The notes under the pieces are model-generated. The model worked only from the letters and a program-made list of their open reading frames with translations, had not been told where the DNA came from and ran no database searches. A program made the translations under genes and the position numbers. From the sequence record OR352941.1: a DNA stretch of 64,000 nucleotides, one strand, 5' to 3'. Below, piece by piece: positions 293 to 25,732 of the stretch (position 1 is its first letter; every line of letters begins with the position of its first letter). This DNA is from Escherichia phage AV111.

Positions 293-390
293 TGTATTTT
301 TCCATAGGCATCATTATATTTTACTCATGTTTAAAAGATAAGATGATTATATACTAAGAGTTATACAGCATTTAAAACTTTAAATGGCTC

Positions 391-939
391 TTAACGAGCC
401 CATTTAATGATTTCTGTAATCAAATTATTACGTTCGCTTGCATTAAATCCTATAACTTTGTTAGAACCATCATGATTAAGTAATTGATACGTTTGGATTT
501 TGTTATGAATTGCAAACTCTTCAAAATGTGAAATGACTGTATTAAAACCGAATGAAGACAAAGTAATAAGGTCGTCTTCAAAACTTTCAGACATTTCGTT
601 ACGTGTTAAAATAATTGTGAACACATCATGGTTTTGGCAAAGACGAACATAATCCTGTTCATAAACGTCAAGAACCGAGTCCGCATCTTGTCGAATACGT
701 CCATAAACCCAGTTACTAATATATCCACGGTCTAACAGATAAATCTTAGTAGGGTCTAAATAATTCAACATCGTTTCGAAACAGCCAACTTCATTTCGAG
801 ACTTAACATCGAAACGTCCATCAACTGTTCGTTTAGGGAAATCAATCTTTACATATCTTTCACTAATTTCCATTATGTCATTAATGAAAGTTGTTTTACC
901 AGCATTATCTGGGCCATCTACTAAAATAATTTTAGCCAT
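391..939 (-). CDS. P-loop (Walker A GPDNAGKTT) nucleotide/nucleoside kinase-like protein, 182 aa
   Basis: ORF track; N-terminal MAKIILVDGPDNAGKTTF resembles dNMP/thymidylate-kinase-type P-loop; sits where T4 has beta-gt region genes. Confidence 0.6.
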   Translation of the reverse strand: MAKIILVDGPDNAGKTTFINDIMEISERYVKIDFPKRTVDGRFDVKSRNEVGCFETMLNYLDPTKIYLLDRGYISNWVYGRIRQDADSVLDVYEQDYVRLCQNHDVFTIILTRNEMSESFEDDLITLSSFGFNTVISHFEEFAIHNKIQTYQLLNHDGSNKVIGFNASERNNLITEIIKWAR

Positions 940-940
940 T

Positions 941-1840
941 TTATTCCTCGATTACGACATCTTCATATTTAGGTATATTATACGGCGAAGAAATTAAAGC
1001 GTTAAAGTAGATGAACTCACCAAGACCTGGATGGAATACTTCTTCAGGATTTTCGAAATATTGAATCTTCGGACGTCCTTTAAGAATTTGATAGTACTCA
1101 GTTTTAGTTGGATTAAAAATTCGAATCAGCGCTTCTTCAGGATACTTATTTCTGTCGAAACTATTATTTGGATCAGTTATATAAAGCGGTTGACCTAATT
1201 GAATTGCGCATTCAACCACTTGTTCAAAACGATAGCATGGGTCACTAATTCGAAATGGATGAAAAATACCATCTAGATGAATAGGAGCCAAATCACCTAC
1301 AAGACGCTGCATGACGGAAGGACGTATAACTTTCTGCGTTACGATAATCTTATTACCATCTGCACCTGCGTTAACCAGCACTTCTTTTTGACGTTCATTC
1401 AACACAGTAGTTTGAAGTGAACGATTAACAGACAACATGTCGGTTTTTAAGAATTCATCAATATAAAAACGTGGTTTATTAGGGTCTGCAGTGATATTGA
1501 AATTGAATTCTACATCAAAAGCGCCGTCATATCCAGTGATATCTGTGATTAGAAAATCGCAATCATAATAAGCAATTAATGAATCAACTACAAATTCATT
1601 TTCAGACCAGAAATATTTACGAGTGTTATACGCGTTATCTTTATACCATAATGGAACAAACTTAAATTCTGGAAAAAGACGTTCGCATTCTTTAATATCA
1701 GATGCATTACGTGGATATGTAATCACATCACCCGGATTAGCACGGTGCAAATGAAGTTGGAAGTTGCCATCCTTAAGGATAGCATACTGTCCAGTTTCAT
1801 AAGACCGCATACTCAAGATAGGTACGCGGAAAATAGCCAT
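941..1840 (-). CDS. hypothetical protein, 299 aa (occupies the T4 beta-gt position; function unknown, candidate transferase)
   Basis: ORF track; tightly packed between P-loop gene and 42-like gene (1-nt spacing/overlap); no recognisable motif by eye. Confidence 0.6.
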   Translation of the reverse strand: MAIFRVPILSMRSYETGQYAILKDGNFQLHLHRANPGDVITYPRNASDIKECERLFPEFKFVPLWYKDNAYNTRKYFWSENEFVVDSLIAYYDCDFLITDITGYDGAFDVEFNFNITADPNKPRFYIDEFLKTDMLSVNRSLQTTVLNERQKEVLVNAGADGNKIIVTQKVIRPSVMQRLVGDLAPIHLDGIFHPFRISDPCYRFEQVVECAIQLGQPLYITDPNNSFDRNKYPEEALIRIFNPTKTEYYQILKGRPKIQYFENPEEVFHPGLGEFIYFNALISSPYNIPKYEDVVIEE

Positions 1841-2556
1841 TAGTCAAGGAATCCTTTAACATAATCAAAATCACGTTCAAACACATGGGCACTTACCATG
1901 GTATGAGTATAATCACCAACTTCTACACCACATTCGTTAGCGATATAATGAAGTAATTTTCCTTGGAGATAAAAATCCAACTGCATAACAACAGCACAGT
2001 TCTGAGAACGCATATGACAGTGGGTATAAAGCTTACCATCACGAATATAATAAGTCACTGAGTCAGTACATGGATATTCAAGCGTTTCGTCTGAATCAAG
2101 CAAAGCCTGATCAGAACTTTCTAGAATTTGGAACACAACTCTTCGAGAGTTAGGCTTCTCTTTAAGTTCTTTTAGAAGAGCTGGTAATTGAGCCGCAATG
2201 CGAGGACCATAGAAAGTGTTGAAGTTCGCCGGCAAAACATCTGATTTTGGTTTAGAAATAAATTTAGCGACATTAGGATATGCCTTAAACGCTTCTTCTG
2301 CGTTGGTACCACCAGAAATCATAAACTTCCAGAAGTCTTCGGCATATTCATAAGAGATGCGGTTAATACGTGGGTCGGTCATTTTGAATGATGACGGAGT
2401 GTCAACAACTACTGTCATAGACCCAATTTCATTACAACGTCCAATACGAGAATCAGTTACGAATTCCGGGTTTTCTAAAATTTCACGATTGACTGCTTTA
2501 AATGCGGTTTGAAAATCTGCGGCTTTGATATATTTCATTGTGTTATGTTTTCCCAT
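1840..2556 (-). CDS. 42: thymidylate-synthase-family pyrimidine hydroxymethylase (gene 42 position, divergent dCMP hydroxymethylase homolog)
   Basis: Motifs PNSRRVVF, YPCTDSVTYYIRDGKL and HMRSQNCAVVMQLDF parallel the T4 gp42 PDSRRG / CTNTVQYLIRD / MRSNDVVFG blocks, but overall identity to T4 gp42 as I recall it is low. Confidence 0.7.
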   Translation of the reverse strand: MGKHNTMKYIKAADFQTAFKAVNREILENPEFVTDSRIGRCNEIGSMTVVVDTPSSFKMTDPRINRISYEYAEDFWKFMISGGTNAEEAFKAYPNVAKFISKPKSDVLPANFNTFYGPRIAAQLPALLKELKEKPNSRRVVFQILESSDQALLDSDETLEYPCTDSVTYYIRDGKLYTHCHMRSQNCAVVMQLDFYLQGKLLHYIANECGVEVGDYTHTMVSAHVFERDFDYVKGFLD

Positions 2557-2597
2557 GTTTACCTCAATACAATTATTATATACTCAATTCGTAAAGC

Positions 2598-2837
2598 TTA
2601 TTTGAATTTCTTGGCAGTGTTGATATAACGTAAAGCTTCAGCATCGATACTTCCAAGAACACTATGAAGAAATGCATCAGCGTAGTATTCCAATTGAACA
2701 GATTCTTTAATCACTTTAGCCGCTTTAGTTTCAAACAGGCCCATCAGGGCCTTTTTAAGAATTTGTTCATTAGTGTTCAGTTTCATAGTCAAAATCTCTT
2801 CATTAAGTTGGTGGTTAAAAGTTTTTCTAGAAATCAT
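2598..2837 (-). CDS. hypothetical protein, 79 aa
   Basis: ORF track; overlaps stop of upstream gene by 4 nt, operon-like packing. Confidence 0.45.
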   Translation of the reverse strand: MISRKTFNHQLNEEILTMKLNTNEQILKKALMGLFETKAAKVIKESVQLEYYADAFLHSVLGSIDAEALRYINTAKKFK

Positions 2838-3994
2838 TCCGGGTACCTCAAAGCGTCATCAGAGTTAGTTATATCAATAATAGATATAGAGTTTTCTGCT
2901 AACCCGTTTTTAGATAATTGACGTTTATAATATCTTTCACAATATGTACACGTCGTCCCGCAGATTTCATTAGCACAATCGAAATCTGGATGTCTGAACC
3001 ACCTTTTTTCTAAAAAGCCATCTAACAAAGAGGTTTCAATATTTACTGTATGTGAAAACTCAGTTTCGTTTTCAAGAGTGAAAATAGTCTCTAAAGGCTT
3101 CCACAGTTCTAACAAATTACCTTCAAACTTTTCAGAAGCGTATGCTTCAAGAACTTTCAAAATGTAGTCTGTGCTACCTGTACGTCCTGAAACTTTGAAT
3201 TGAGTGATACCAATATCATTATAAAGTTTCAAATCTTGAGGACGAACAAAACGAGTTCTCAACCAGTTAAATGGGTCTGTATCACGAGCTTTAATACAGT
3301 GCTGCATAGGATATCCGTTTAAGGATTTAGCATCATCAGCTGTAACATCAGTACTATGGAAAATATAGCAAGAGTCACGATAGCTACAATGTGTTGTATA
3401 CCCTTTACCAGCATTAGAACAGAACTCATTTACAAGAACTTCAAATATTATATTGTTCTTATTGCAAAACTCTGCTGCACGCTTCAGGAAAGAAACTGAA
3501 CGGTTCTTATGAATTCCACAGCAGACCTTTTTGATATTATATTGGTCATGCAAGTATTTGATTTGAGTTACAGCATCGACATGTAGAATTGTTGAAACTT
3601 CAATCTCAATGTCTTTATTGACTTCACGAACAATTTCCATAACAACAGGGTTAGCGATAGTAATACGCCATACGCCTATTGACCAAAGATACTGAACATA
3701 ATCCTGAATAGCTTTCTTCTTCCACTCAACTAGTTCTCTTTTTGAACCAGGATTTATCGTGTTGAGTGTATAGTTAAAGCAAATACCTAATTCGTTACAA
3801 CGTTTAACGTAATCTTCTAACATCTTTTTGTCAACGTCAGGAAGCCTAAAATCAGGTCTGGCTGCTACAAAAGCCATTTCTCTTGTAGAGCCGTATACTT
3901 CGTTTATCAAGCTATTAGGATAGGTTTTATTGAGCTCTACGATTTTATCAAGAAGAGCTAAATCAAAATTCGTTCCGATTTTAAAAGTATTCAT
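2834..3994 (-). CDS. cysteine-rich hypothetical protein, 386 aa (possible metal/Fe-S binding; modification-island gene)
   Basis: ORF track; C-terminal FDCANEICGTTCTYCERYY (Cx4Cx3Cx2C) plus other Cys clusters; no confident family assignment. Confidence 0.6.
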   Translation of the reverse strand: MNTFKIGTNFDLALLDKIVELNKTYPNSLINEVYGSTREMAFVAARPDFRLPDVDKKMLEDYVKRCNELGICFNYTLNTINPGSKRELVEWKKKAIQDYVQYLWSIGVWRITIANPVVMEIVREVNKDIEIEVSTILHVDAVTQIKYLHDQYNIKKVCCGIHKNRSVSFLKRAAEFCNKNNIIFEVLVNEFCSNAGKGYTTHCSYRDSCYIFHSTDVTADDAKSLNGYPMQHCIKARDTDPFNWLRTRFVRPQDLKLYNDIGITQFKVSGRTGSTDYILKVLEAYASEKFEGNLLELWKPLETIFTLENETEFSHTVNIETSLLDGFLEKRWFRHPDFDCANEICGTTCTYCERYYKRQLSKNGLAENSISIIDITNSDDALRYPE

Positions 3995-4056
3995 TTTTTT
4001 TGCATCTCGCGTTAATTGATGCGATGGTTTTTTTTTTGCAGGTCTTACTTAAATTA

Positions 4057-4458
4057 TTATAGATTCGGTTTATATGATTTAAATGTTTCGAATTCGCCTT
4101 TATTCATAAGAGCTTTGAATTCATCAGGACGCATAGCTTTGTCGTCGATAATCCAATCATATACTGGTTTATGTGTTAGCAAATTATGGTACTTCAAACC
4201 AATGTTTTCCAAGTTCTGAATAAGACTTGGGAGAATGTCAATTGCTATACGACCAGGACCTACTGACTTCATACCACGAGCAGTGTAAAGCGTTATGGTA
4301 TGCCCTGCATCATACAGGGCATTAATGGCAGACACCATTTCGACGTCTGGTTTGAAGTTCACGTAATCACGATTGTTATTCCATTCCGTGATGCAATCAT
4401 CGACATCAAAACAAAGATTAAGCATGTTTTCTACACAGTGCATTAGATTCGTTCCCAT
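4057..4458 (-). CDS. HAD-superfamily sugar-phosphate phosphatase (KdsC/GmhB-like), 133 aa
   Basis: N-terminal FDVDDCIT = HAD motif I (DxD); small size typical of HAD IIIA phosphatases; overlaps upstream gene end. Confidence 0.65.
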   Translation of the reverse strand: MGTNLMHCVENMLNLCFDVDDCITEWNNNRDYVNFKPDVEMVSAINALYDAGHTITLYTARGMKSVGPGRIAIDILPSLIQNLENIGLKYHNLLTHKPVYDWIIDDKAMRPDEFKALMNKGEFETFKSYKPNL

Positions 4459-6128
4459 TGATGAGTGATATCGCCACCGATTGGACGATAAGAAACACCA
4501 GTTTCTTTATCAGTTAGTACCCATTTACCAGGATTTTTTGTAATCAGAGTAGCCGTTACAGGTTCTGCTACGTCATAACTAATAGAGCCGTCTTGAAGTA
4601 CACGGCCCATGTTACGTAATTGCTTAGTCAGAAGTTCCATACCTTTATAATATGCTGCTACCGCTTTAAGTGGATTATTCTTGAAATAACCACCTAATGC
4701 AATCCAGATAATTGCTACAGCCAAATGATGATACTCGTTAAACGAACTCATCTTTCCATATTTGTAAACTAATGGATTGATGTTAATAGTCACATTACAA
4801 GTTGTTTCATCAATAGTAAACTGTCCCCAGGCCGGATTAGCATTGAATTCATCATAACCTGAAACAGCATAAAGCACTTTAGCTTCATCATACAATTTTG
4901 GCCCGTAAATCTTGGTTTCGCCAAAATATCCACGAGGGTCGATAAACTTGACTTCGCCGTTATCAGTAATCATAGTATTACTGAAGTTCGGGTCACCATG
5001 AATAACAGAGTACTGTCCCTGAGAACGGTTATGATAACGAATAAGGTGTTCTAAAGCTTGTTTCAGCATTGGCTTCAGACGTCCAATCTTAGTGTAGTTC
5101 ACATGTGTGATTTTACCAAATGAATCAATCAATGGTTGAATACTTTCACAACGATCAATAACTTTCGTATAGAATTCTTTAGTGAAATCACGACGAACAG
5201 TTTCAGGACTTACAAAATAAGTGTCTGTGCTGAATTTCAGTGCATCTAAAATTGCATCAACAATTTGTGGACGAGCAAGACTTGATTTGGATTTAATATA
5301 TTCAAATGCCGGCTTACCTTTAATGCGTTCCATTTCAAAGTTATTTTCATTAACAGAAACTAACTGAGGAACTGAATCTGATTTCACTTTAAGATACCAC
5401 GAAATCTCATCTTTCTGAAGAGCTCGACCCTGTTCGGTTAATGCGAATTTAGTTACAGTTTCTTCACCAATTTCAACTGCATTAAAACTACGATTAAGTT
5501 CACGAACTTCATGAGCTTTTTCAAGTTTAGGCATATCACCTAAATCAATTAGATTCATAAGCTCTGATTTATTGAATGCGCTGCCGTAAAGGAATTCTAC
5601 GAAATCACGTCCTTTGCAGTATTCATGAATTTCCTCATCGGTAGAACCCATATAGAATTCCCAGTCTTTGAACTGATAAATTCCTACAACATTACCACCT
5701 GTTGAACCTACGTTAGTGATATTTTCACCGTCGAAATTATATCGACATTCATCACCCTTAACATAGATTGCGTTAACATTCCAAGACCATGAACCAAAAT
5801 CAGGAATAATATCACACCAGTTAACAATTACGTTATGGCCGTCTAAATCTTTGTGTAATTTAGCAAGAGCATAAGCAGAACCATACGCTTCATCAACTGT
5901 ACGAATAGTCACATTGAACCCTTCTTGCTCACAATAAGCTCGAACAGTTTCAGCAAATTTTGAATGAACTACTACAATAATTTCATCTGCGCCAAGGTCA
6001 GAATAAATTGTATACAAATTGCTCAGAATAGTGTCTTGTTTATAGTTAACAAGCACCTTAGGAATATGATGCGTTATTGGATACAAACGAGTTGCCAGTC
6101 CAGCACCAAGAATAACAGCTTTTTTCAT
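4443..6128 (-). CDS. bifunctional sugar-1-phosphate nucleotidyltransferase (N-terminal) / sugar anomeric kinase (C-terminal APH/ChoK-like), 561 aa
   Basis: N-terminus MKKAVILGAGLATRLYPITHHIPKVLV = GxGxRLxPxT pyrophosphorylase signature; C-terminus VIHGDPNFSNTMITDNGEVKFIDPRGYFG = HGDxxxxN catalytic loop of APH/choline-kinase fold. Confidence 0.75.
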   Translation of the reverse strand: MKKAVILGAGLATRLYPITHHIPKVLVNYKQDTILSNLYTIYSDLGADEIIVVVHSKFAETVRAYCEQEGFNVTIRTVDEAYGSAYALAKLHKDLDGHNVIVNWCDIIPDFGSWSWNVNAIYVKGDECRYNFDGENITNVGSTGGNVVGIYQFKDWEFYMGSTDEEIHEYCKGRDFVEFLYGSAFNKSELMNLIDLGDMPKLEKAHEVRELNRSFNAVEIGEETVTKFALTEQGRALQKDEISWYLKVKSDSVPQLVSVNENNFEMERIKGKPAFEYIKSKSSLARPQIVDAILDALKFSTDTYFVSPETVRRDFTKEFYTKVIDRCESIQPLIDSFGKITHVNYTKIGRLKPMLKQALEHLIRYHNRSQGQYSVIHGDPNFSNTMITDNGEVKFIDPRGYFGETKIYGPKLYDEAKVLYAVSGYDEFNANPAWGQFTIDETTCNVTININPLVYKYGKMSSFNEYHHLAVAIIWIALGGYFKNNPLKAVAAYYKGMELLTKQLRNMGRVLQDGSISYDVAEPVTATLITKNPGKWVLTDKETGVSYRPIGGDITHQWERI

Positions 6129-6169
6129 GTTGAAGTCCTCATTGGTAAGTAGGAGTATTGTACACTATT

Positions 6170-6313
6170 CTAGTTAAAGCATTCATACTTTGCTTGTAGT
6201 CCAATCATAATCCATCCAATTACAAGTGTTGGAATCATTACCGGAGCCGTTAAGCTCCAGTAGATAGTCATGACAAGCATCAATAGTAAAAGTCCTATTG
6301 TTATTGCTTTCAT
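6170..6313 (-). CDS. small hydrophobic membrane protein, 47 aa (not in ORF track; imm-region small protein)
   Basis: Own translation MKAITIGLLLLMLVMTIYWSLTAPVMIPTLVIGWIMIGLQAKYECFN; ATG overlaps stop of SIS gene (ATGA). Confidence 0.4.
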   Translation of the reverse strand: MKAITIGLLLLMLVMTIYWSLTAPVMIPTLVIGWIMIGLQAKYECFN

Positions 6314-6945
6314 TGTTCGCCTCGTAACATGGCACCTAGTGCACCGCCTGGATGGAACTTAAGGAAATCATTAGAGGTAAATCCACGTTCAGACGAAAGG
6401 TTGATAGCAAACGTATCGATAAGCGCTAACAACAATGTAGTGGACATTGTCGGAGCTAAAGAGTTCTCGTCAACTTCTACCGCGATACCGGTACAGAACG
6501 TATAATCAAAAAGAGCTTCGTATTCTTGTGGAATGTCAGGGTTACAATGTAACAGAATCTGTTTAACCTGAGGACGAATCATACGAAGATGTTTAGCAAC
6601 ACCTATCATTTCTTCAGTCTTACCAGAACGACTGATGTGAACTAATACATCATTAGGTGCAATAAATCCTGCGTCACCATGAGAATAATGCCCAGTGTTC
6701 AAGTACATACTCGGGATACCGAGTGAAGCAAATGTCTCAGAAGCTTTAGTTGCGATATTAGCATTCTTACCAACACCTGTAATAATTACCCGGCTTTCAT
6801 AATTGCTAAGTCCGGGGCGTCGAAGAGTTTCTAGAATAGCATTATAACGAGCAGGGTTTTGACTAATTACTTTGGCCATAGCGGCCAAAGAAGAAGCTTG
6901 TTTTATGATTGCGTCAATAGCGATAGTAATAGGAGTAGTTTTCAT
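6310..6945 (-). CDS. SIS-domain sugar-phosphate isomerase (KdsD/KpsF-type arabinose-5-phosphate isomerase-like, no CBS domains), 211 aa
   Basis: RVIITGVGKNANIATKASETFASLGIPS...HGDAG resembles the KdsD GxGKSxxIxxKxAATxASTGTP...HGDLG core rather than the GmhA GNGGS motif. Confidence 0.7.
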   Translation of the reverse strand: MKTTPITIAIDAIIKQASSLAAMAKVISQNPARYNAILETLRRPGLSNYESRVIITGVGKNANIATKASETFASLGIPSMYLNTGHYSHGDAGFIAPNDVLVHISRSGKTEEMIGVAKHLRMIRPQVKQILLHCNPDIPQEYEALFDYTFCTGIAVEVDENSLAPTMSTTLLLALIDTFAINLSSERGFTSNDFLKFHPGGALGAMLRGEQ

Positions 6946-6985
6946 ATTTCTCTCATTTAATTAGTTTACCGTCCATGACATTATA

Positions 6986-9697
6986 TCAAAAATCGAACAT
7001 ATCGAACAGAGATGCTTTCTTCTCATAATCGAGTTTCGCTGCTGATGTGAATCCTTCAAGTGGTTTAATAAATGTCTTCTCAAGGAGAACAGTGTAGTCC
7101 ATCCAATGAAGTACATCGTCTTTAATTAAATCTGTGATTTCAGTACCAGAAGGCCATGCGATACATTTATCACCGAATGGGTTTCCTTCACGTAAAGGCA
7201 GAACATATACTTTTTCACCTTCTACAACTTGCGGCGCATCAATATTACCTTTGATAGCTCGGTTATATGTCAGAATTCCACGAATATGGAACGGGCATTT
7301 GGGGCCAGGGAATCCACCGACATCATATTTAGCAATGTTATTCGCAGAAGATACCGACGCGATGCTAATATAATTCAATTGACGGAATTCTTTTTCAAAC
7401 TCTTTAAAATATTCTTGTAATGATTCTTCACCTTCTTGAAGCATACGACGAATACATTCTTTAAGAGCTTTCTGTACTGCTTTAGGGGTCGAAGATTTCT
7501 GAGTCTCTAGACCCATGATTTTGAGTTTAGGCTCAGCGTAACGAGTGCCTTCCATATCCCACACGTTTAATGCATAACGTTTCTTACCAGTCCAGAATCC
7601 ACCAATACCTTTAGAACCGAGCGGAGGGCCAGCAATAGCTTCTCGGTCCATGAACATCAAATGTTGCTTATTATTCATGTATTCACACATTTCACGGAAA
7701 CCTCTATCAATAGCTGGTTCCATACGTTCACGTGCAAACTTATCTAAGAAGTCTACCCAATGGTTGGTATCACGGAATTTAGATTCACCAACCTTATCAA
7801 TAATTTTATCTGCAGATACGTAAATGGAGTCTGTATCACCATATAGAACGAAAGCTTCGCCTTCTGTACCACAAACTTCATTCAGATATTCATTAACTTT
7901 ACGTTCAATCCACTGTAAAGCCATTTGCCCAAATGTTGTGATTGCAGTTGCATTACGCAAATCGTAATAACGGAACCAAACGTTTCCAAGTGCACCATAA
8001 AGTGAGTTGATAAGCAATTTACGGTTAATCTGTGCAGTCATACCTGCAACTTCAGTACGTTGAGCTCTAAACAACATTTCATTAAGAGATTTAGCAGACA
8101 ACTTTTTAATCTTTTCTTTAATCTCATCACTGAAGTCGAAACGATAATCAACATCTAATGGTTCGTCAACAGAAAGATTAGGATTATGCAATGCCTCTTT
8201 AATTATTTCGCCATTACGTTGAGCTGCAAGCATGTAACCTTTATGTTCTTTACGTTGATTAAAGACCTTAGTGATTTCAGTTGGAACTACACCATCACGG
8301 TCTTTATAATACATCATGCCGTTAGGAGAGCAACTGTACACATCTGAAGGACGTTCAGCGATTGCGTTAATATAATCATGCAGTGGAGCTACTTTAAACG
8401 TTCCTGCTATTGTTTCAGGGCTAATATTCACTTGGCGAATAATACTTGGATACAGAGATGTAAGGTCGAAACTCATTACATATTTGTATCGATTTGGAAT
8501 AGGTTCCTTAACAAAAGCGCCAGGATAAGGTTGAACCGGGTGAGAACGACCTTGTGGAATCACCTTGTTCTGCTCTTTAAGGCTATTAAAAATAATAGCA
8601 TCCCATGTTTTAATTGGACTGAACACAGATTGAATCTGAATTTTAGCATAATAACCCATGTCCAAGCTCAAGTTAATGAACTGGCGTTTAGCATCAATTT
8701 GCAATACACGATATACGTCGATAATGTTATAAGAAATATATCGTTGGTGATTGCTTTCACGAAGCTTAGAAATAGGGCCGTCATATTTCAGTTTACCAAC
8801 GTTCAATTCAAATTCTGAAATGTAATCCAGAGAATACGACGGTTGGTTCGTGAAAGAGAACTTTTTGTAAAGGTCAATGTAATCAAGAACAGAGATACCG
8901 AACAATGTAATGATTTCACGAGAACCATACATGTTTTCGATAACTTTAACACGAGTTTTACGATGTGGTGATAAACGTTTCGCAGTAGATTCGCCAAAAA
9001 TATTCTTGATTCGGTTATACACATATGGAATATCAAATGACTCAACGTTCCATCCAGTCAAAATGACAGGAGTTTTCTGTTGCCAGAAGTTGAGATATTC
9101 CATCAACAATTCTTTTTCGTTATCGAACGGCATATAAATGATTTTATCGATAATTTCGGATGGAACTTCATCACCGCCTTGTTCTTGAAGCTTAGCAGCG
9201 ATTTCAATAGACCATTCTTCTACATTACCATATGGAGAATTCAATAGATCAAATACGTAGAACCTGTCGTCAATTGAGTCATAATGGGTGATAGCATCAA
9301 TCGGATGTTTTGCTTGTGACGGCTCAGGGAACCCATCCGGAGATGTTACTTCGATGTCGAAGTTAGCCACACGAATTTTTGTATGGTCGTATTTGATTTC
9401 ATAGTTATAAGTGTCAGACAAATACGCCAATTTGAAATCGTCCATGCCAAGTGCTTCAAGTCCGATATCTTCCATGCGTTTAATCCATTGAGACGCATCG
9501 CGCATATTAGCGAACAACTTACGAGTACACGGCTTACCGTAGATATCGAAATATTTCGTAGCCTGACTTTCTGGACAATGAGCAAACAGTGATGGTTTAT
9601 ATTCTACTTCACGAGTACGTTCACGGCCATTAGAATCGATGTAACGTTCAAAAATTGAATCACCAATCTGTTCAACCGTTAAGTAAAATTCTTTCAT
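6986..9697 (-). CDS. 43: DNA polymerase gp43 (family B, with 3'-5' exonuclease)
   Basis: 903 aa; N-terminus MKEFYLTVEQIGDSIFERYIDSNGRERTREVEY and motifs DIEVT, YGDTDS match RB69/T4 gp43. Confidence 0.97.
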   Translation of the reverse strand: MKEFYLTVEQIGDSIFERYIDSNGRERTREVEYKPSLFAHCPESQATKYFDIYGKPCTRKLFANMRDASQWIKRMEDIGLEALGMDDFKLAYLSDTYNYEIKYDHTKIRVANFDIEVTSPDGFPEPSQAKHPIDAITHYDSIDDRFYVFDLLNSPYGNVEEWSIEIAAKLQEQGGDEVPSEIIDKIIYMPFDNEKELLMEYLNFWQQKTPVILTGWNVESFDIPYVYNRIKNIFGESTAKRLSPHRKTRVKVIENMYGSREIITLFGISVLDYIDLYKKFSFTNQPSYSLDYISEFELNVGKLKYDGPISKLRESNHQRYISYNIIDVYRVLQIDAKRQFINLSLDMGYYAKIQIQSVFSPIKTWDAIIFNSLKEQNKVIPQGRSHPVQPYPGAFVKEPIPNRYKYVMSFDLTSLYPSIIRQVNISPETIAGTFKVAPLHDYINAIAERPSDVYSCSPNGMMYYKDRDGVVPTEITKVFNQRKEHKGYMLAAQRNGEIIKEALHNPNLSVDEPLDVDYRFDFSDEIKEKIKKLSAKSLNEMLFRAQRTEVAGMTAQINRKLLINSLYGALGNVWFRYYDLRNATAITTFGQMALQWIERKVNEYLNEVCGTEGEAFVLYGDTDSIYVSADKIIDKVGESKFRDTNHWVDFLDKFARERMEPAIDRGFREMCEYMNNKQHLMFMDREAIAGPPLGSKGIGGFWTGKKRYALNVWDMEGTRYAEPKLKIMGLETQKSSTPKAVQKALKECIRRMLQEGEESLQEYFKEFEKEFRQLNYISIASVSSANNIAKYDVGGFPGPKCPFHIRGILTYNRAIKGNIDAPQVVEGEKVYVLPLREGNPFGDKCIAWPSGTEITDLIKDDVLHWMDYTVLLEKTFIKPLEGFTSAAKLDYEKKASLFDMFDF

Positions 9698-22165: not shown

Positions 22166-22636
22166 TTAATCATGTTTCCACACCCCATCGGTATTTGACC
22201 AAAGTCGCTGATTATCTGATCCTCGCCACAGCTTTTTAGTCGGAAGATTTTTCTCATACTTCCCATCAATAATAACATCAACATATTTAAGCATTTCTAG
22301 TTGTTTAATATCTTCAAACTTATATCCTGTCCACAACCAAATGCTTTTATTGGGATAAAGATTTTTTACTGTTTGAACAATGCAATGAATAACATCTCGA
22401 TTATCAGGATAGAGAGGGTCTCCTCCGGTTATAGTCAATCCTTCTATATAATCGTTATTCAAACATTCAATTAATTGTTCTAGTGTTTCACCAGTGAATG
22501 GAATACCATTTCTAGCATTCCATGTTGATTTATTATAGCACCCTTCACATTTATGCAAACAACCTGTAACGAAAAGAACGACCCTGCATCCAGGGCCATT
22601 CACAAAATCGCAAGGATAAAATCTATCATAATTCAT
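22166..22636 (-). CDS. nrdG: anaerobic ribonucleotide reductase activating protein (radical SAM)
   Basis: 156 aa; CDFVNGPGCRVVLFVTGCLHKCEGCYN. Confidence 0.92.
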   Translation of the reverse strand: MNYDRFYPCDFVNGPGCRVVLFVTGCLHKCEGCYNKSTWNARNGIPFTGETLEQLIECLNNDYIEGLTITGGDPLYPDNRDVIHCIVQTVKNLYPNKSIWLWTGYKFEDIKQLEMLKYVDVIIDGKYEKNLPTKKLWRGSDNQRLWSNTDGVWKHD

Positions 22637-24450
22637 TGGTGTTTAACCCTATGCATGATTTCTTTATTTTTGCCGAGATTAAATCCGCGTTCGTTCGGGT
22701 TTCCCAAATAACCGCATGTTCTTCTTATGGTGTTCATCTTTTTAGGATCAGTTTCTCCGCAAACTGAACAAACAAATCCGTTTTCAGTAGGAGTCATTTC
22801 ATGGGTACTTCCACATGTAAAACATTTATCTACTGGCATATTAACACCAAAATAATCTAAATGTTGTGCAGCATAATCCCACACGGCCTCAAGTCCTTTT
22901 AAGTTATTTTTCATATCAGGAAGTTCAACATAAGAAATGTGACCACCTGTCGCAATGAAATGATATGGCGCTTCACGAGAAATCTTTTCAAACGGAGTAA
23001 TATTTTCTTCTACTGAAACGTGGAAACTGTTAGTGTACCAGCCTTTATCGGTAACATCTTTTACACTTCCATATTTTTCTGTATCGAGTTTACAGAAGCG
23101 ATAACAAAGGTTTTCAGCAGGAGTAGAATACAAACTAAAAGCAAAACCAGTTCTTTCAGTCCACTGCTTAAGATGAGCATTCATTTTAGTTAAAATTTCT
23201 TGCCCAATATCACGGCCGACAAGAATATTCAATTCGTGAATACCAATGTATCCTAAAGACACTGAACTTCTACCGTTTTTAAATAACTCAATTATGTCGT
23301 CATCAGGTTTAAGACGAACCCCGAATGCACCTTCTTGGTAAAGAATAGGAGCTACAGTTGCTTTAACTCCTTTTAAGGAACTAATTCTACACATCAAAGC
23401 TTCAAAACACAGGTCCATTCGTTCGTTAAATAGCTCAACAAATTTCTGTTCATTGAACTGTGTTCCAATATAAGAATCTAACGCAATACGAGGAAGATTC
23501 AGTGTTACAACACCAAGATTATTACGTCCATCAAGAATTTCATTACCAGTCGAATCTTTCCATACGCTCAAGAAACTACGGCAACCCATTGGAGAAACTG
23601 GAACTGAAGAACCGGTAATAGCTTTATTATTCTTAACCGAAATAATGTCAGGATACATTCTTTTGCTTGCACATTCTAACGCAAGTTGTTTAATATCATA
23701 GTTTGGATCATCTTTATAAAGATTAACACCTTCTTCAACAAACATAACAAGTTTAGGAAAAATAGGAGTTATTCCATCACGACCAAGACCTTTAATGCGG
23801 TTTTTAAGAATTGCCTTCTGAATCATTCGTTCAGTCCAATCGGTTCCCGTACCAAATGTAATTGTTACAAAAGGAGTTTGTCCGTTTGAACTAAAGAGAG
23901 TGTTTACTTCATATTCATAAGCTTGGAATGCATCGTATACGTCTTTTTCTGTTTTAGATTGAGCATAATTCAACGCGTCAGCGATTTGCCATTTTTCTGC
24001 ATCTTCAACATGTTTAGCGTATGTACGTTTAACATAAGGAGAAAGAACTTTATCGACATTCGCAAAAGTCGTTCCGCCGTATTGGTGTGAAGCAACTTGT
24101 GCAGTAATTTGTGCCATAATTGCAGTAGCAACACCAATCGATTTAGGCGTTTCAATTTGAGCATTGCCTAATTTAAATCCGTTCTCAAGCATCCCTTTTA
24201 AATCTACTAAACAACAATTAGTAAAAGGCAATGATATACTGTAATCTAAATCATGAAAATGAATTAACCCGGCATTATGAGCATTTACAATATGGCTTGG
24301 AAGAATACTGCAAGCGATATGTTTAGAAACAATACCGGCCATTAAATCTCTTTTTGTTGGAAAGACACGAGAATCTTTGTTGGCGTTTTCGGTATTTAAT
24401 TCTTTATCTTTATTTGAAATAAAATTTAAAACATCTTTCTCTAAAGACAT
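22633..24450 (-). CDS. nrdD: anaerobic ribonucleotide reductase large subunit (glycyl radical enzyme), uninterrupted (no intron)
   Basis: 605 aa continuous ORF; C-terminal CFTCGSTHE...CSVCG zinc site and RRTCGYLG glycyl-radical motif. Confidence 0.95.
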   Translation of the reverse strand: MSLEKDVLNFISNKDKELNTENANKDSRVFPTKRDLMAGIVSKHIACSILPSHIVNAHNAGLIHFHDLDYSISLPFTNCCLVDLKGMLENGFKLGNAQIETPKSIGVATAIMAQITAQVASHQYGGTTFANVDKVLSPYVKRTYAKHVEDAEKWQIADALNYAQSKTEKDVYDAFQAYEYEVNTLFSSNGQTPFVTITFGTGTDWTERMIQKAILKNRIKGLGRDGITPIFPKLVMFVEEGVNLYKDDPNYDIKQLALECASKRMYPDIISVKNNKAITGSSVPVSPMGCRSFLSVWKDSTGNEILDGRNNLGVVTLNLPRIALDSYIGTQFNEQKFVELFNERMDLCFEALMCRISSLKGVKATVAPILYQEGAFGVRLKPDDDIIELFKNGRSSVSLGYIGIHELNILVGRDIGQEILTKMNAHLKQWTERTGFAFSLYSTPAENLCYRFCKLDTEKYGSVKDVTDKGWYTNSFHVSVEENITPFEKISREAPYHFIATGGHISYVELPDMKNNLKGLEAVWDYAAQHLDYFGVNMPVDKCFTCGSTHEMTPTENGFVCSVCGETDPKKMNTIRRTCGYLGNPNERGFNLGKNKEIMHRVKHQ

Positions 24451-25262
24451 AATTCTAATTTATCCTTTTGAAATTCTTCGTCTAAATATGGGTTCCAACC
24501 CATTTTAAACCTTTTGATGAAATTATCAATTCTAAATTTCGGTAAGTTTAAATCCGCAAAAATAGATGATTTACTTTTAAAATCTGGACCTAAATAATCA
24601 TATAAAATTTCTGCGTATTTTAACCATAATATATAAGTACCAGATTTAATTGCTCTCGGAGTTTTCCAAGGTTTTACACCATACATCGGATTTCCACTTC
24701 CTTTATGCCTGATAGAAGATGAAATTCCAATTTTAATTTTAGCTTCCTCTGTATGCGAAAATCCATGATGTGGATTTTCTTTCCAGTATTTTTTAGAAGC
24801 TTCTGATATTTTCTTTCTGGCTAAATTAGTATGATGCTTTCCATAAAATCCATGATTTTTACCTTTATTACGATTTCTTTTAATCATGGTTATTGATTGC
24901 TTTTTTCTAGTTTCTTTAGAAGGAGAAACACCATACGTTGTAAATTGACCATTAGCATATGCTAAATTAAAATACTCTTTATTCCATATATCTTTTTCTA
25001 TATTCTTTTGAAATTCAGCTTCAATGCTAGTTATTTGCTCATCTCCGACTAATTGAAAATATAATATTTCAACTTTCGGCGTTTCTTTCAACAGGGCTTT
25101 TTGAAATTCGGAAGATGACGAAGACGAATAATAAAATTTACCATTTTTATCAATAATATTCGTTCCGTCAAAAGTGCAATTAGTTTTACTTCCAATGTAA
25201 TAATATGGCGGGGTTTTAGCATTAATTCTATTAATAAATGATAGTTTATATACTACATTCAT
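24441..25262 (-). CDS. GIY-YIG homing endonuclease-like protein (Seg-like), free-standing between 49 and nrdD
   Basis: N-terminus VVYKLSFINRINAKTPPYYYIGSK; NUMOD3-like ISEASKKYWKENPHHGFSHTEEAKIKIG; overlaps nrdD start by 10 nt and 49 stop by 4 nt. Confidence 0.75.
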   Translation of the reverse strand: MNVVYKLSFINRINAKTPPYYYIGSKTNCTFDGTNIIDKNGKFYYSSSSSSEFQKALLKETPKVEILYFQLVGDEQITSIEAEFQKNIEKDIWNKEYFNLAYANGQFTTYGVSPSKETRKKQSITMIKRNRNKGKNHGFYGKHHTNLARKKISEASKKYWKENPHHGFSHTEEAKIKIGISSSIRHKGSGNPMYGVKPWKTPRAIKSGTYILWLKYAEILYDYLGPDFKSKSSIFADLNLPKFRIDNFIKRFKMGWNPYLDEEFQKDKLELCL

Positions 25263-25732
25263 TTTAAACTCTTTCTAAGCTGCTTTTTGAATGAAGCTAT
25301 TAATTGTGTTTTAGTATCAGATTCATTATATTCAAATCCTCTTTGAAGCATCTCAGCCATCATTTCCTCTTTGCCTAGTCTTGAGAACTCTTTAGTTTTG
25401 TCTGGAACAAAATTAGGATGGATATTATTATCAGAATAATCTTGTTTCAAATAAGCAAGAAGAGCTTCAAGCCATTCGAGGTAGTCAACATCACGTCCTT
25501 TAAGACCGGAACGATTGAACTTATGCTTCATTTGGCCTTCTGCTGCGTTGCACAGAGAACAGAGTAACCCACGAACTCTACCGGCTTTTGGCCCGTTTAA
25601 TTCGTGGTCGTGGTCAAGATGGTTACCTTGAACATCAGGGTCTAATTCACGGTGGCAAATAGGACACTTACCATTCTGTGCATCATAAAATTTTTGTTTT
25701 TCTTCTTTGTATAATTTGCCAGATAATAACAT
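25259..25732 (-). CDS. 49: endonuclease VII (Holliday junction resolvase) gp49
   Basis: 157 aa; CPICHRELDPDVQGNHLDHDHELNGPKAGRVRGLLCSLCNAAEG matches T4 gp49. Confidence 0.93.
   Translation of the reverse strand: MLLSGKLYKEEKQKFYDAQNGKCPICHRELDPDVQGNHLDHDHELNGPKAGRVRGLLCSLCNAAEGQMKHKFNRSGLKGRDVDYLEWLEALLAYLKQDYSDNNIHPNFVPDKTKEFSRLGKEEMMAEMLQRGFEYNESDTKTQLIASFKKQLRKSLK

What the first reader, a model, noticed from the sequence alone, without database searches (positions are those of the whole stretch)
4057..6945. Phage-encoded NDP-sugar biosynthesis cassette (SIS isomerase, bifunctional nucleotidyltransferase/kinase, HAD phosphatase) inserted between gene 42 and gene 43
Three adjacent co-oriented genes encode the activities needed to turn a central pentose-phosphate metabolite into a nucleotide-activated sugar. 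The SIS protein (6310..6945) has a KdsD/KpsF-type arabinose-5-phosphate isomerase core (GVGKNANIATKASETFASLGIPS...HGDAG). The 561-aa protein (4443..6128) fuses an RmlA/GalU-type pyrophosphorylase (GAGLATRLYPIT..PKVL) to an APH/choline-kinase-type kinase (HGDPNFSN). The 133-aa protein (4057..4458) has the HAD DxD motif. The logic mirrors the bacterial GmhA / HldE / GmhB ADP-heptose route (isomerase, anomeric kinase, terminal phosphatase, nucleotidyltransferase) but with non-orthologous folds. A plausible route is ribulose-5-P to D-arabinose-5-P to arabinose-1,5-bisphosphate (or free arabinose) to arabinose-1-P to NDP-arabinose. T4 has only imm at this locus and takes UDP-glucose from the host; a host without an NDP-arabinose pool would force the phage to carry its own donor pathway. 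This fits the arabinosyl-hmC DNA modification reported for RB69-type phages, whose donor synthesis is, to my knowledge, not biochemically established.
Basis: partly seen in the sequence, partly recalled or inferred. Interest (0 to 1): 0.85.

Follow-up and report, generated by a model that had tools for sequence, protein, structure and literature searches.

The report
Phage UDP-arabinose pathway for DNA modification

Summary
Three co-oriented minus-strand genes sit at the stated coordinates: a KdsD/GutQ-type arabinose-5-phosphate isomerase (6310..6945), a 561-aa sugar-1-phosphate nucleotidyltransferase fused to an APH/choline-kinase-fold kinase (4443..6128), and a small HAD phosphatase (4057..4458, more likely starting at 4443).

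The proposed route (ribulose-5-P, arabinose-5-P, arabinose-1,5-bisphosphate, arabinose-1-P, NDP-arabinose) matches the published pathway for RB69 gp55, gp52:53 and gp51 and for HY126 AfhE/AfhF.

Three corrections are needed:
- The modified base is arabinofuranosyl-5-hydroxycytosine, not arabinosyl-hmC.
- The neighbouring "gene 42" is a flavin- and O2-dependent dCMP 5-hydroxylase.
- Donor synthesis has been established biochemically (He et al. 2026, as cited by Lee et al. 2026).

Verdict: real, correctly interpreted, already known, low interest.

One adjacent lead is less explored. The next gene downstream (2834..3994) belongs to the peptidase-U32 family, as do RlhA, TrhP and UbiU/V, which are O2-independent, prephenate-dependent hydroxylases. 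In 51 related phages it is translationally coupled to a chorismate mutase. It may provide an anaerobic route to 5-hydroxycytosine.

The parts
6310..6945 (-). Single-SIS-domain D-arabinose-5-phosphate isomerase, the orthologue of RB69 gp55. It converts ribulose-5-P to arabinose-5-P.
   Evidence: Pfam SIS 9.6e-10. NCBIfam KpsF/GutQ 8.9e-32 and KdsD 3.9e-30. PDB 3etn 9.6e-25, 5uqi 1.8e-22, 2xhz 2e-18. 35% identity to E. coli KdsD, with K60, H89, E112, E157 and H198 matching KdsD K59, H88, E111, E152 and H193. No similarity to GmhA.
6170..6313 (-). 47-aa hydrophobic ORF inside the cassette (RB69 ORF054c region). Its start overlaps the SIS stop by 4 nt. Function unknown.
   Evidence: Conserved at 47-66% identity in related loci, including lineages that lack the SIS gene. 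No Pfam hit. Not similar to T4 Imm.
5514..6128 (-). N-terminal domain (about residues 1-205) of the 561-aa protein: sugar-1-phosphate nucleotidyltransferase, converting arabinofuranose-1-P plus UTP to UDP-Araf.
4614..5501 (-). Kinase domain (about residues 210-505) of the 561-aa protein, with the APH/choline-kinase/fructosamine-kinase fold. Anomeric kinase, converting arabinose-5-P to arabinose-1,5-bisphosphate.
4443..4613 (-). C-terminal tail of about 55 aa (residues 506-561 plus the stop codon), found only in the T4-like phage versions. Function unknown.
   Evidence: Present in homologues down to about 36% identity and absent from the more distant jumbo-phage, giant-virus and cellular homologues in alignment A1. 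Lower pLDDT of 75-86.
4057..4458 (-). Small HAD-superfamily phosphatase, the orthologue of RB69 gp51 and HY126 AfhF. It converts arabinose-1,5-bisphosphate to arabinose-1-P. The likely true start is the ATG at 4443 (128 aa), in a TAATG overlap with the upstream stop.
   Evidence: PDB 9iqw 5e-86 (98% identity) and 1xpj 1.5e-10, with all four HAD motifs aligned. NCBIfam TIGR01689 1.9e-13. Sequence at the junction. RB69p051 is 128 aa.
2834..3994 (-). Peptidase-U32-family Fe-S-type protein (RB69 gp50), directly downstream of the cassette. Function not established. Proposed here to be an O2-independent pyrimidine C5 hydroxylase.
   Evidence: Pfam U32 7.3e-11. Model pLDDT 90, best PDB match 5d88. 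Ten invariant Cys in 28 homologues. Coupled to a chorismate mutase in relatives. Nucleotide-metabolism contexts elsewhere.
2598..2837 (-). 79-aa ORF whose start overlaps the U32 stop by 4 nt (RB69 ORF049c). It is not a chorismate mutase, although that is the gene found directly after U32 in many sister genera.
   Evidence: No Pfam or NCBIfam hit. hhalign probability 2% against the phage chorismate-mutase class. Classes listed.
1840..2556 (-). Thymidylate-synthase-family dCMP 5-hydroxylase (5hodCMP synthase, RB69 gp48), in the position of T4 gene 42.
   Evidence: Pfam Thymidylat_synt 2.3e-15. PDB 9iqc/9ir2/9iqu near-identical, 7.9e-161. 25% identity to T4 gp42, with MRSQN where T4 has MRSND. 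Function from PMC13326640.
941..1840 (-). 299-aa putative first DNA arabinosyltransferase (RB69 gp46:47), in the position of T4 beta-gt but unrelated to it in sequence.
   Evidence: No Pfam, NCBIfam or PDB sequence hit. No similarity to T4 beta-gt. Always co-located with the cassette in T4-like phages. Assignment from PMC13326640.
391..939 (-). 182-aa P-loop nucleotide kinase (RB69 gp45), part of the same module.
   Evidence: Weak dTMP-kinase hit. Annotated as thymidylate kinase in RB69 and Bas47. Co-located in all T4-like loci.

Best explanation
The cassette is the phage's own pathway to UDP-D-arabinofuranose, the sugar donor used to decorate 5-hydroxycytosine in its DNA. The steps are as follows. 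(1) The SIS enzyme takes ribulose-5-phosphate from the host pentose-phosphate pathway and isomerises it to D-arabinose-5-phosphate. (2) The C-terminal kinase domain of the 561-aa protein phosphorylates the anomeric carbon, giving arabinofuranose-1,5-bisphosphate. (3) The small HAD phosphatase removes the 5-phosphate, giving arabinofuranose-1-phosphate. (4) The N-terminal nucleotidyltransferase domain couples this to UTP, giving UDP-Araf. Glycosyltransferases then transfer arabinose to the 5-hydroxyl of cytosine; one of them is the 299-aa gene three genes downstream. The 5-hydroxycytosine itself is made as 5-hydroxy-dCMP by the thymidylate-synthase homologue in the same module. Shown here by computation: enzyme family, fold and catalytic motifs for all four activities, the linkage of the genes across phages, and fusion of all four activities into one protein elsewhere. 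Taken from the literature: the arabinose-hydroxycytosine chemistry in RB69, the O2/flavin hydroxylase, and the kinase, phosphatase and pyrophosphorylase activities measured for the HY126 orthologues. Inferred: that this particular phage behaves the same way (it is 97.65% identical to RB69 over the 6.6-kb module).
For: Family and fold tests for each enzyme are. In every T4-like locus retrieved, the nucleotidyltransferase-kinase gene is followed by the HAD gene and accompanied by the ThyA-like, 299-aa and P-loop kinase genes, and in most it is preceded by the SIS gene. Proteins of 890-955 aa fuse domains in the order HAD, SIS, nucleotidyltransferase, kinase; most of them carry all four Pfam domains. 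This is a Rosetta-stone link between the separate phage genes. Near-identical solved structures exist for the phosphatase (9iqw) and the hydroxylase (9iqc, 9ir2, 9iqu). Literature: Thomas 2018 found arabinose in RB69 DNA and nominated ORF055c and ORF53_52c (PMC6024577). The Bas47 GenBank record annotates 'UDP-arabinose biosynthesis'. Lee et al. 2026 showed mono- and di-Araf-5hoC in RB69, proposed this exact pathway for gp55, gp52:53 and gp51, showed that UDP-Araf is used by the DLP3 transferases, and cite He et al. 2026 for the AfhE and AfhF activities (PMC13326640). Inactivating the Shewanella phage Thanatos orthologue TH1_060 abolishes propagation (PMC12838424).
Against: No enzyme of this particular phage has been assayed. 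The primary biochemical paper (He et al. 2026) and Mahler et al. 2025 are not in the held library, so their results are known only through citing papers. Table 1 of Lee et al. still lists the alternative order, with dephosphorylation to free arabinose first and anomeric phosphorylation second. The Thanatos orthologue made no NDP-sugar from xylose-1-phosphate with any NTP, although that was not the expected substrate. Nucleotide specificity (UTP) cannot be read from the sequence. Several E. coli and Klebsiella phage lineages have the kinase-transferase and HAD genes but no SIS gene, so the isomerase is dispensable where the host's KdsD/GutQ supplies arabinose-5-P.
Confidence: 0.9

Rival explanations
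1. Same enzymes and same end product, but a different order. The HAD phosphatase first strips arabinose-5-P to free arabinose, the kinase then phosphorylates free arabinose at C1, and the transferase makes UDP-arabinose. This would be a salvage-type kinase/pyrophosphorylase logic, as in AmgK/MurU or Fkp.
For: The closest kinase folds (choline kinase, APH, fructosamine kinase, glucosamine kinase) act on unphosphorylated substrates.
Against: [quoted passage not shown] The phosphatase's structural relatives include the heptose-1,7-bisphosphate 7-phosphatase cited there.
Confidence: 0.07
2. The cassette makes a sugar nucleotide for something other than DNA, for example modifying the host envelope or capsule, or glycosylating virion proteins. 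This is what the database names ('capsule biosynthesis phosphatase', 'KpsF', 'GlmU') suggest.
For: NCBIfam's nearest families are capsule-related, namely KpsF and EcbF/BcbF. Distant homologues in giant viruses and jumbo phages occur with SIS but without the ThyA-like hydroxylase or the 299-aa transferase, so there the product probably serves another acceptor.
Against: In all T4-like phages the genes are embedded in the base-modification module, between DNA polymerase and uvsX and alongside the hydroxylase and transferase. RB69-type DNA carries arabinose on every cytosine.
Confidence: 0.02
3. The 561-aa protein is itself the DNA glycosyltransferase, as the Thanatos study suggested for TH1_060, rather than a donor-synthesis enzyme.
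For: CDD labels the N-terminus as GT-A-like. The authors of PMC12838424 keep it as a 'good candidate as a glycosyltransferase'.
Against: The fold and motifs are those of sugar-1-P nucleotidyltransferases, not Leloir transferases. It did not transfer sugar to DNA, dCMP or dCTP in their assays. The kinase domain and the fusions with SIS and HAD make sense only for donor synthesis.
Confidence: 0.01

Closest known systems
RB69 gp55 / gp52:53 / gp51 and HY126 AfhE / AfhF (UDP-arabinofuranose pathway of arabinosyl-5-hydroxycytosine phages; Thomas 2018, Mahler 2025, He 2026, Lee 2026)
   Same: Orthologous genes in the same order and genomic position. The module is 97.65% identical to RB69 in DNA, and the phosphatase is 98% identical to PDB 9iqw. 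Same four activities and same product.
   Different: Nothing of substance. The window comes from a different Mosigvirus isolate (best match FL31, 98.6%). It has the intact 561-aa and 299-aa reading frames that are split by sequencing errors in the RB69 record.
ADP-heptose pathway GmhA / HldE / GmhB
   Same: Same logic: ketose-phosphate isomerase, anomeric kinase giving a bisphosphate, distal phosphatase, then nucleotidyltransferase, with kinase and transferase fused in one protein. The isomerase and phosphatase belong to the same superfamilies (SIS, HAD).
   Different: The SIS protein shows no detectable similarity to GmhA. The kinase has the APH/choline-kinase fold, not the ribokinase-like fold of HldE, and the transferase is RmlA/MurU-type with the domain order reversed. 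The sugar is a pentose, and the acceptor is DNA rather than LPS.
AmgK / MurU and LicA / LicC (APH-fold kinase plus small nucleotidyltransferase pairs)
   Same: The best structural matches of the two domains are MurU and LicC for the N-terminal domain and LicA and related choline/aminoglycoside kinases for the C-terminal domain. These pairs also make a phosphate ester and then a nucleotide-activated product.
   Different: Those are separate proteins acting on unphosphorylated substrates (MurNAc, choline), with no isomerase or phosphatase step. That AmgK is an anomeric sugar kinase of this fold is from my own knowledge and was not tested here.
KdsD / GutQ / Bacteroides fragilis API (arabinose-5-phosphate isomerases)
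   Same: SIS domain with all five catalytic residues. Like 3etn, it is a single-domain form.
   Different: It lacks the tandem CBS domains of KdsD and GutQ, so it scores below the NCBIfam full-length cut-offs. The arabinose-5-P is used for a sugar nucleotide, not for Kdo.
U32-family hydroxylases RlhA, TrhP and UbiU/UbiV (for the adjacent gene 2834..3994)
   Same: Pfam Peptidase_U32 domain and a TIM-barrel fold like 5d88, with many invariant cysteines. RlhA makes 5-hydroxycytidine in rRNA and TrhP makes 5-hydroxyuridine in tRNA. All depend on prephenate and Fe-S clusters and need no O2.
   Different: Only 16-22% identical to them. The canonical CX6CX15CX3-4C motif is not kept as such; instead there are ten invariant Cys, including a C-terminal Cx4Cx3Cx2C. 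No activity is known, and Lee et al. list it only as 'sugar or heterocycle reductase'.

Membership tests
KpsF/GutQ/KdsD arabinose-5-phosphate isomerase | SIS domain most similar to KdsD/GutQ rather than to GmhA or other SIS families | tested here: met
   NCBIfam KpsF/GutQ 8.9e-32, KdsD 3.9e-30, GutQ 2.6e-22, with no GmhA model listed. BLASTP against KdsD E=1e-32 and against GmhA E=6.7.
KpsF/GutQ/KdsD arabinose-5-phosphate isomerase | Catalytic residues of E. coli KdsD (K59, H88, E111, E152, H193; residue list from my knowledge of the 2xhz work) | tested here: met
   K60, H89, E112, E157 and H198 align to them.
KpsF/GutQ/KdsD arabinose-5-phosphate isomerase | C-terminal tandem CBS domains of the full-length family | tested here: not met
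   The protein is 211 aa and matches only positions 2-153 of the 268-position model, scoring 110.7 bits against a 203.7 cut-off. This is the same single-domain form as PDB 3etn and 5uqi.
Sugar-1-phosphate nucleotidyltransferase (RmlA/GalU/MurU/LicC type) | G-x-G-x-R-L signature, conserved Lys, and the nucleotidyltransferase fold | tested here: met
Sugar-1-phosphate nucleotidyltransferase (RmlA/GalU/MurU/LicC type) | Specificity for UTP and arabinofuranose-1-P | not testable with these tools
   Rests on HY126 AfhE assays and on UDP-Araf use by DLP3 transferases, as reported in PMC13326640.
APH / choline-kinase / fructosamine-kinase small-molecule kinases | Brenner motif HxDxxxxN, downstream metal-binding Asp, and a bilobal kinase fold | tested here: met
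HAD-superfamily phosphatase (EcbF/BcbF, 1xpj-like small HADs) | Four HAD motifs (DxD, T/S, K/R, DD) | tested here: met
   FDVDD, YTAR, HKP and IIDDK align with the 1xpj motifs. 98% identical to solved 9iqw. TIGR01689 1.9e-13, below its 162-bit cut-off.
ADP-heptose pathway (GmhA/HldE/GmhB) | GmhA-type isomerase and HldE-type (ribokinase-like plus cytidylyltransferase-like) bifunctional enzyme | tested here: not met
   No similarity to GmhA. The kinase and transferase folds are APH-like and RmlA-like. It works like this pathway but is not a member.
Arabinosyl-5-hydroxycytosine DNA modification module (Mosigvirus / Afh type) | ThyA homologue with Asn at the ThyA-D169 position (5hodCMP synthase signature of Lee et al.) | tested here: met
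   The window has MRSQN where T4 gp42 has MRSND. It is near-identical to PDB 9iqc. The signature is stated in PMC13326640.
Arabinosyl-5-hydroxycytosine DNA modification module (Mosigvirus / Afh type) | Syntenic first arabinosyltransferase and nucleotide kinase next to the hydroxylase | tested here: met
   941..1840 and 391..939 are the orthologues of RB69 gp46:47 and gp45.
Arabinosyl-5-hydroxycytosine DNA modification module (Mosigvirus / Afh type) | Second arabinosyltransferase (RB69 gp3 homologue) and dCTPase | not tested
   In RB69 these lie outside the stretch that corresponds to this window (roughly RB69 23.6-87.6 kb by the offset).
U32 prephenate-dependent hydroxylases (for 2834..3994) | Peptidase_U32 domain | tested here: met
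   Pfam 7.3e-11, 42.2 bits against a 22.4 cut-off. Best fold match 5d88.
U32 prephenate-dependent hydroxylases (for 2834..3994) | Canonical four-Cys Fe-S motif CX6CX15CX3-4C | tested here: inconclusive
   Only one Cys (C192) aligns with the motif of RlhA, TrhP and UbiU/V, and the first two are deleted. However, ten Cys are invariant in the subfamily, enough for two clusters.
U32 prephenate-dependent hydroxylases (for 2834..3994) | Functional link to prephenate supply | tested here: inconclusive
   Met in relatives: a chorismate mutase (Pfam CM_2 40.9 and 32.8 bits; PDB 1ybz 1.9e-15) lies between the U32 and ThyA-like genes in 51 phage records, overlapping the U32 stop codon in nine of the loci examined, and a DAHP synthase lies next to a homologue in another phage. 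Not met in this window, where the 79-aa ORF at that position is unrelated.

The most novel reading that the evidence does not exclude
The gene immediately downstream of the cassette (2834..3994, RB69 gp50) is not a protease or a sugar enzyme. It is an O2-independent, prephenate-dependent C5 hydroxylase of a cytosine (deoxy)nucleotide or of DNA, and a relative of RlhA, which makes 5-hydroxycytidine in rRNA. It would let gut phages make 5-hydroxycytosine when the O2/flavin-dependent ThyA-like hydroxylase cannot work. The same window encodes the anaerobic ribonucleotide reductase NrdD/NrdG, so the phage is equipped to make dNTPs without oxygen. Sister genera carry their own chorismate mutase coupled to this gene to supply the oxygen donor. 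Phages of the strict aerobe Acinetobacter make the same modification without it. I found no held paper that makes this connection, but He et al. 2026 and Mahler et al. 2025 could not be read.
Probability: 0.35. Interest if true: 0.7.

Novelty: already known. Interest (0 to 1): 0.2.

Why it matters
The cassette explains how a phage can cover every cytosine with a sugar that its host does not activate. This matters for evasion of restriction and CRISPR, for type IV restriction targeting, and for the genetic isolation of RB69-type phages from T4. That story is already published, so this finding adds only independent computational confirmation for one more isolate. Two by-products may be worth more. 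The first is the U32 plus chorismate-mutase pairing beside the cassette, which points to a second, oxygen-independent way of hydroxylating cytosine. The second is the existence of single polypeptides that carry all four pathway activities in giant viruses, which shows the pathway is used well beyond phage DNA modification.

Tried and rejected
- GmhA/heptose assignment of the SIS protein: rejected (E=6.7 against GmhA).
- Window ORF 2598..2837 as a diverged chorismate mutase: rejected (no CM_2 hit; hhalign probability 2%).
- The 47-aa ORF as a relative of T4 Imm: no support.
- Promoter and terminator scans of 300..7200: no more sites than in shuffled sequence, so no operon boundaries are claimed.
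- 299-aa protein against T4 beta-glucosyltransferase: no similarity.
- Profile search of the whole family against PDB sequences found kinases only at E of about 0.03.
- Attempts to read He et al. 2026 failed because it is not held. Searches for Mahler et al. 2025 returned only papers that cite it.
- A transposon-mutagenesis preprint that mentions LC53 and Bas46 gave no essentiality data for these genes.
- Model coordinates are not returned by the tool, so clustering of the U32 cysteines in space could not be measured.
Full report
**What is there.**
The window is a T-even-type phage of the genus Mosigvirus. The 3.2-kb region matches about 155 phage records at 95-99% identity (best match Escherichia phage FL31, 98.6%). 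The 6.6-kb module is 97.65% identical to RB69.

All genes here are on the minus strand. Reading in the direction of transcription, from DNA polymerase gp43 (6986..9697), the order is:

| Gene | Coordinates | Length |
|---|---|---|
| SIS protein | 6310..6945 | 211 aa |
| Hydrophobic ORF | 6170..6313 | 47 aa |
| Nucleotidyltransferase-kinase | 4443..6128 | 561 aa |
| Small HAD protein | 4057..4458 | 133 aa |
| U32-family protein | 2834..3994 | 386 aa |
| Small ORF | 2598..2837 | 79 aa |
| Thymidylate-synthase homologue | 1840..2556 | 238 aa |
| Putative glycosyltransferase | 941..1840 | 299 aa |
| P-loop kinase | 391..939 | 182 aa |

In RB69 these are p055, p054, p053+p052, p051, p050, p049, p048, p047+p046 and p045, followed by uvsX. 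T4 has imm.1, imm, 42, beta-gt and segA in the same interval.

**The isomerase.**
- The SIS protein passes Pfam SIS. Its best NCBIfam matches are KpsF/GutQ (8.9e-32) and KdsD (3.9e-30).
- Its nearest solved relatives are arabinose-5-phosphate isomerases: 3etn (9.6e-25), 5uqi and 2xhz.
- Against E. coli KdsD it is 35% identical (E=1e-32), and it keeps all five catalytic residues. Against E. coli GmhA there is no similarity (E=6.7).
- It lacks the CBS domains of KdsD and GutQ, like the single-domain enzyme 3etn.

**The bifunctional enzyme.**
- An AlphaFold model built on 32 homologues has mean pLDDT 92.9.
- In the alignment, the transferase signature (G10, R14, K24, D106) and the kinase signature (K227, E241, H377-G-D379...S383-N384, I396-D-P-R-G400) are invariant.
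- A C-terminal tail of about 55 residues is specific to the T4-like phage versions.

**The phosphatase.**
- The 133-aa protein has no Pfam hit. It is 98% identical to PDB 9iqw and aligns motif for motif with the HAD-like 1xpj. It also matches the capsule-phosphatase family TIGR01689.
- The junction sequence ATCTAATGCAC puts an ATG in a TAATG overlap with the upstream stop codon.
- RB69p051 and the crystallised construct both start there. The gene is therefore probably 4057..4443 (128 aa).

**Linkage.**
- In the 28 T4-like loci from IMG/VR plus Bas47, the kinase-transferase gene is always followed by the HAD gene. It is also always accompanied by the ThyA-like, 299-aa and P-loop kinase genes.
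- The SIS gene sits upstream in most of these loci. It is missing from the group whose kinase-transferase is 42-44% identical to the window's (E. coli, Klebsiella and Proteus phages such as IME08, Bp7 and Pm5461). Those phages presumably use arabinose-5-P made by host KdsD/GutQ.
- A search of 5.8 billion proteins found proteins of 890-955 aa with the domain order HAD, SIS, nucleotidyltransferase, kinase; most of them carry all four Pfam domains. One lies among giant-virus genes (MutS with HNH, RNA polymerase subunits). Another comes from the slime mould Ceratiomyxa. This is independent genomic evidence that the four activities form one pathway.

**What is already published.**
- Thomas et al. 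2018 found arabinose in RB69 DNA. They corrected the frameshift that splits ORF053c/052c and nominated ORF055c and ORF53_52c for UDP-arabinose synthesis (PMC6024577).
- The BASEL record for Bas47 annotates these genes as UDP-arabinose biosynthesis.
- Lee et al. 2026 showed that RB69 DNA carries mono- and di-arabinofuranosyl-5-hydroxycytosine. The sugar is ether-linked to a 5-hydroxyl, and the 5-hydroxy-dCMP is made by the ThyA homologue gp48 using a flavin and O2.
- Lee et al. lay out the pathway Ru5P, Araf5P, Araf1,5P2, Araf1P, UDP-Araf for gp55, gp52:53 and gp51. They cite He et al. 2026 for the measured kinase/pyrophosphorylase (AfhE) and Mg-dependent phosphatase (AfhF) activities in phage HY126, and Mahler et al. 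2025 for related phages (PMC13326640).
- UDP-Araf is the donor used by DLP3 transferases in vitro.
- The Thanatos orthologue TH1_060 is required for phage propagation (PMC12838424).
- The finding is therefore correct and already known.

- The base is 5-hydroxycytosine, not hmC.
- The gene in the position of gene 42 is only 25% identical to T4 gp42. It has Asn where ThyA has D169 (MRSQN against MRSND), which is the signature Lee et al. give for 5hodCMP synthases. It is near-identical to PDB 9iqc.
- GmhA and GmhB share the SIS and HAD superfamilies with the phage enzymes. Only the kinase and transferase differ in fold from HldE.

**A lead beside the finding: family and cysteines.**
- The U32 gene is listed by Lee et al. 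only as "sugar or heterocycle reductase". Their discussion mentions the tRNA pyrimidine-hydroxylation pathways without connecting them to this gene.
- The characterised U32 members are RlhA (5-hydroxycytidine in 23S rRNA), TrhP (5-hydroxyuridine in tRNA) and UbiU/V. All work without O2, and all depend on Fe-S clusters and on prephenate as the oxygen donor (PMC5727448, PMC10990095).
- The phage protein is a distinct subfamily, 16-22% identical to those enzymes. It has ten invariant cysteines and a U32 TIM-barrel fold.

**The same lead: genomic context.**
- In every Straboviridae locus examined that carries it, the U32 gene is followed by a small ORF that overlaps its stop codon.
- In Kanagawavirus, Shewanella phage Thanatos and seven IMG/VR loci, that ORF is a chorismate mutase (Pfam CM_2 above threshold; PDB 1ybz 1.9e-15).
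- In all, 51 phage records carry the chorismate mutase, always between the U32 and ThyA-like genes. In Yersinia TG1 and Pectobacterium PM2 it follows a window-type small ORF rather than overlapping U32 directly.
- In Thanatos the U32 and chorismate-mutase pair has moved as a unit.
- This window has an unrelated 79-aa ORF in that position.
- The U32 gene occurs in 221 phage records, and all the host genera named in the tally are facultative anaerobes. The 57 Acinetobacter phages that carry the kinase-transferase evidently lack it: Acinetobacter does not appear in the tally of genera with three or more U32 records, although seven smaller genera are not named.
- Homologues at 50-55% identity were examined in eight other contexts. 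All lie in replication or nucleotide-metabolism modules: dCMP deaminase, dUTPase, thymidylate kinase, ThyX, Pol III alpha, deoxynucleoside kinase, radical SAM, and a TAGT-type DNA glycosyltransferase. One is next to a DAHP synthase.
- The window also encodes NrdD and NrdG.

**Reading of the lead and its weaknesses.**
My reading is that the U32 protein is an oxygen-independent route to 5-hydroxycytosine (probability about 0.35). Four points weaken it:
- IME08-type coliphages lack the gene.
- The canonical Cys motif is not kept.
- This phage has no chorismate mutase of its own.
- The two key experimental papers could not be read.

**Verdict.**
Novelty: already known. Interest: 0.2.

Noticed in passing
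window 2834..3994 (-), with L082 3989-5397 and L083 5001-6391: A U32-family gene lies directly downstream of the cassette. In 51 related phages a chorismate mutase lies between it and the ThyA-like gene, overlapping the U32 stop codon in nine of the loci examined. Chorismate mutase makes prephenate, the oxygen donor of U32 hydroxylases. This suggests an O2-independent route to 5-hydroxycytosine.
   Followed up: yes
window 2598..2837 (-): A 79-aa ORF overlaps the U32 stop by 4 nt. It belongs to a sequence class found in Mosigvirus, Yersinia and Pectobacterium phages and is unrelated to the chorismate mutase that directly follows U32 in many sister genera. Yersinia TG1 and Pectobacterium PM2 carry both. 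Function unknown.
   Followed up: partly
window 6170..6313 (-): A 47-aa ORF with two hydrophobic stretches sits between the isomerase and the kinase-transferase genes. It is conserved at 47-66% identity, even in phages that lack the isomerase gene. It is not similar to T4 Imm.
   Followed up: partly
window 4443..4613 (-): The 561-aa enzyme has a C-terminal tail of about 55 aa (TKNPGKWVLTDKETGVSYRP...QWERI). It is present only in T4-like phage versions and absent from jumbo-phage, giant-virus and cellular homologues.
   Followed up: no
P0084, P0088, P0089, P0091, P0092; L096 8001-10781: Single proteins of 890-955 aa carry HAD, SIS, nucleotidyltransferase and kinase domains in that order. One sits among giant-virus genes and one comes from a Ceratiomyxa fruticulosa transcriptome. 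Versions of about 786-790 aa (P0106, P0111) carry or are named for a cupin-type mannose-6-phosphate-isomerase domain instead. Many giant-virus MAG loci (L041-L076) carry the kinase-transferase.
   Followed up: partly
L018-L024, L028, L033, L048: E. coli, Klebsiella and Proteus phage lineages have the kinase-transferase, HAD, ThyA-like and 299-aa genes but no SIS gene within 10 kb. The IME08-type group (L020-L022, L024, L028, L048) also lacks the U32 gene. They presumably rely on host KdsD/GutQ for arabinose-5-P.
   Followed up: partly
window 3995..4050 (-): Two poly-A tracts just upstream of the U32 start codon vary in length between isolates: A10 and A8 in the window, A8 and A6 in Bas47, A5 and A6 in RB69. 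The second tract decides whether an upstream ATG is in frame, giving the 389-aa annotation in RB69 and Bas47 against 386 aa here.
   Followed up: partly
window 4441..4458 (-): The phosphatase ORF's longest form overlaps the upstream gene by 16 nt. A TAATG stop/start overlap at 4443 gives a 128-aa protein that matches RB69p051 and the crystallised construct 9iqw.
   Followed up: yes
window 22166..25732 (-): The anaerobic ribonucleotide reductase NrdD (22633..24450) and its activase NrdG (22166..22636) are present. A 273-aa ORF with a NUMOD3 motif (24441..25262), probably a homing endonuclease, lies between nrdD and endonuclease VII (25259..25732).
   Followed up: partly
L092 7001-8891; L093 7001-9000: In unrelated metagenomic phages the U32 homologue is followed by a Bacillus-type DAHP synthase (L092), or by a weak TAGT-type DNA glycosyltransferase, with dUTPase/dCTP deaminase and UDP-galactopyranose mutase genes nearby (L093). 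No ThyA-like hydroxylase was detected within 7 kb in either.
   Followed up: partly
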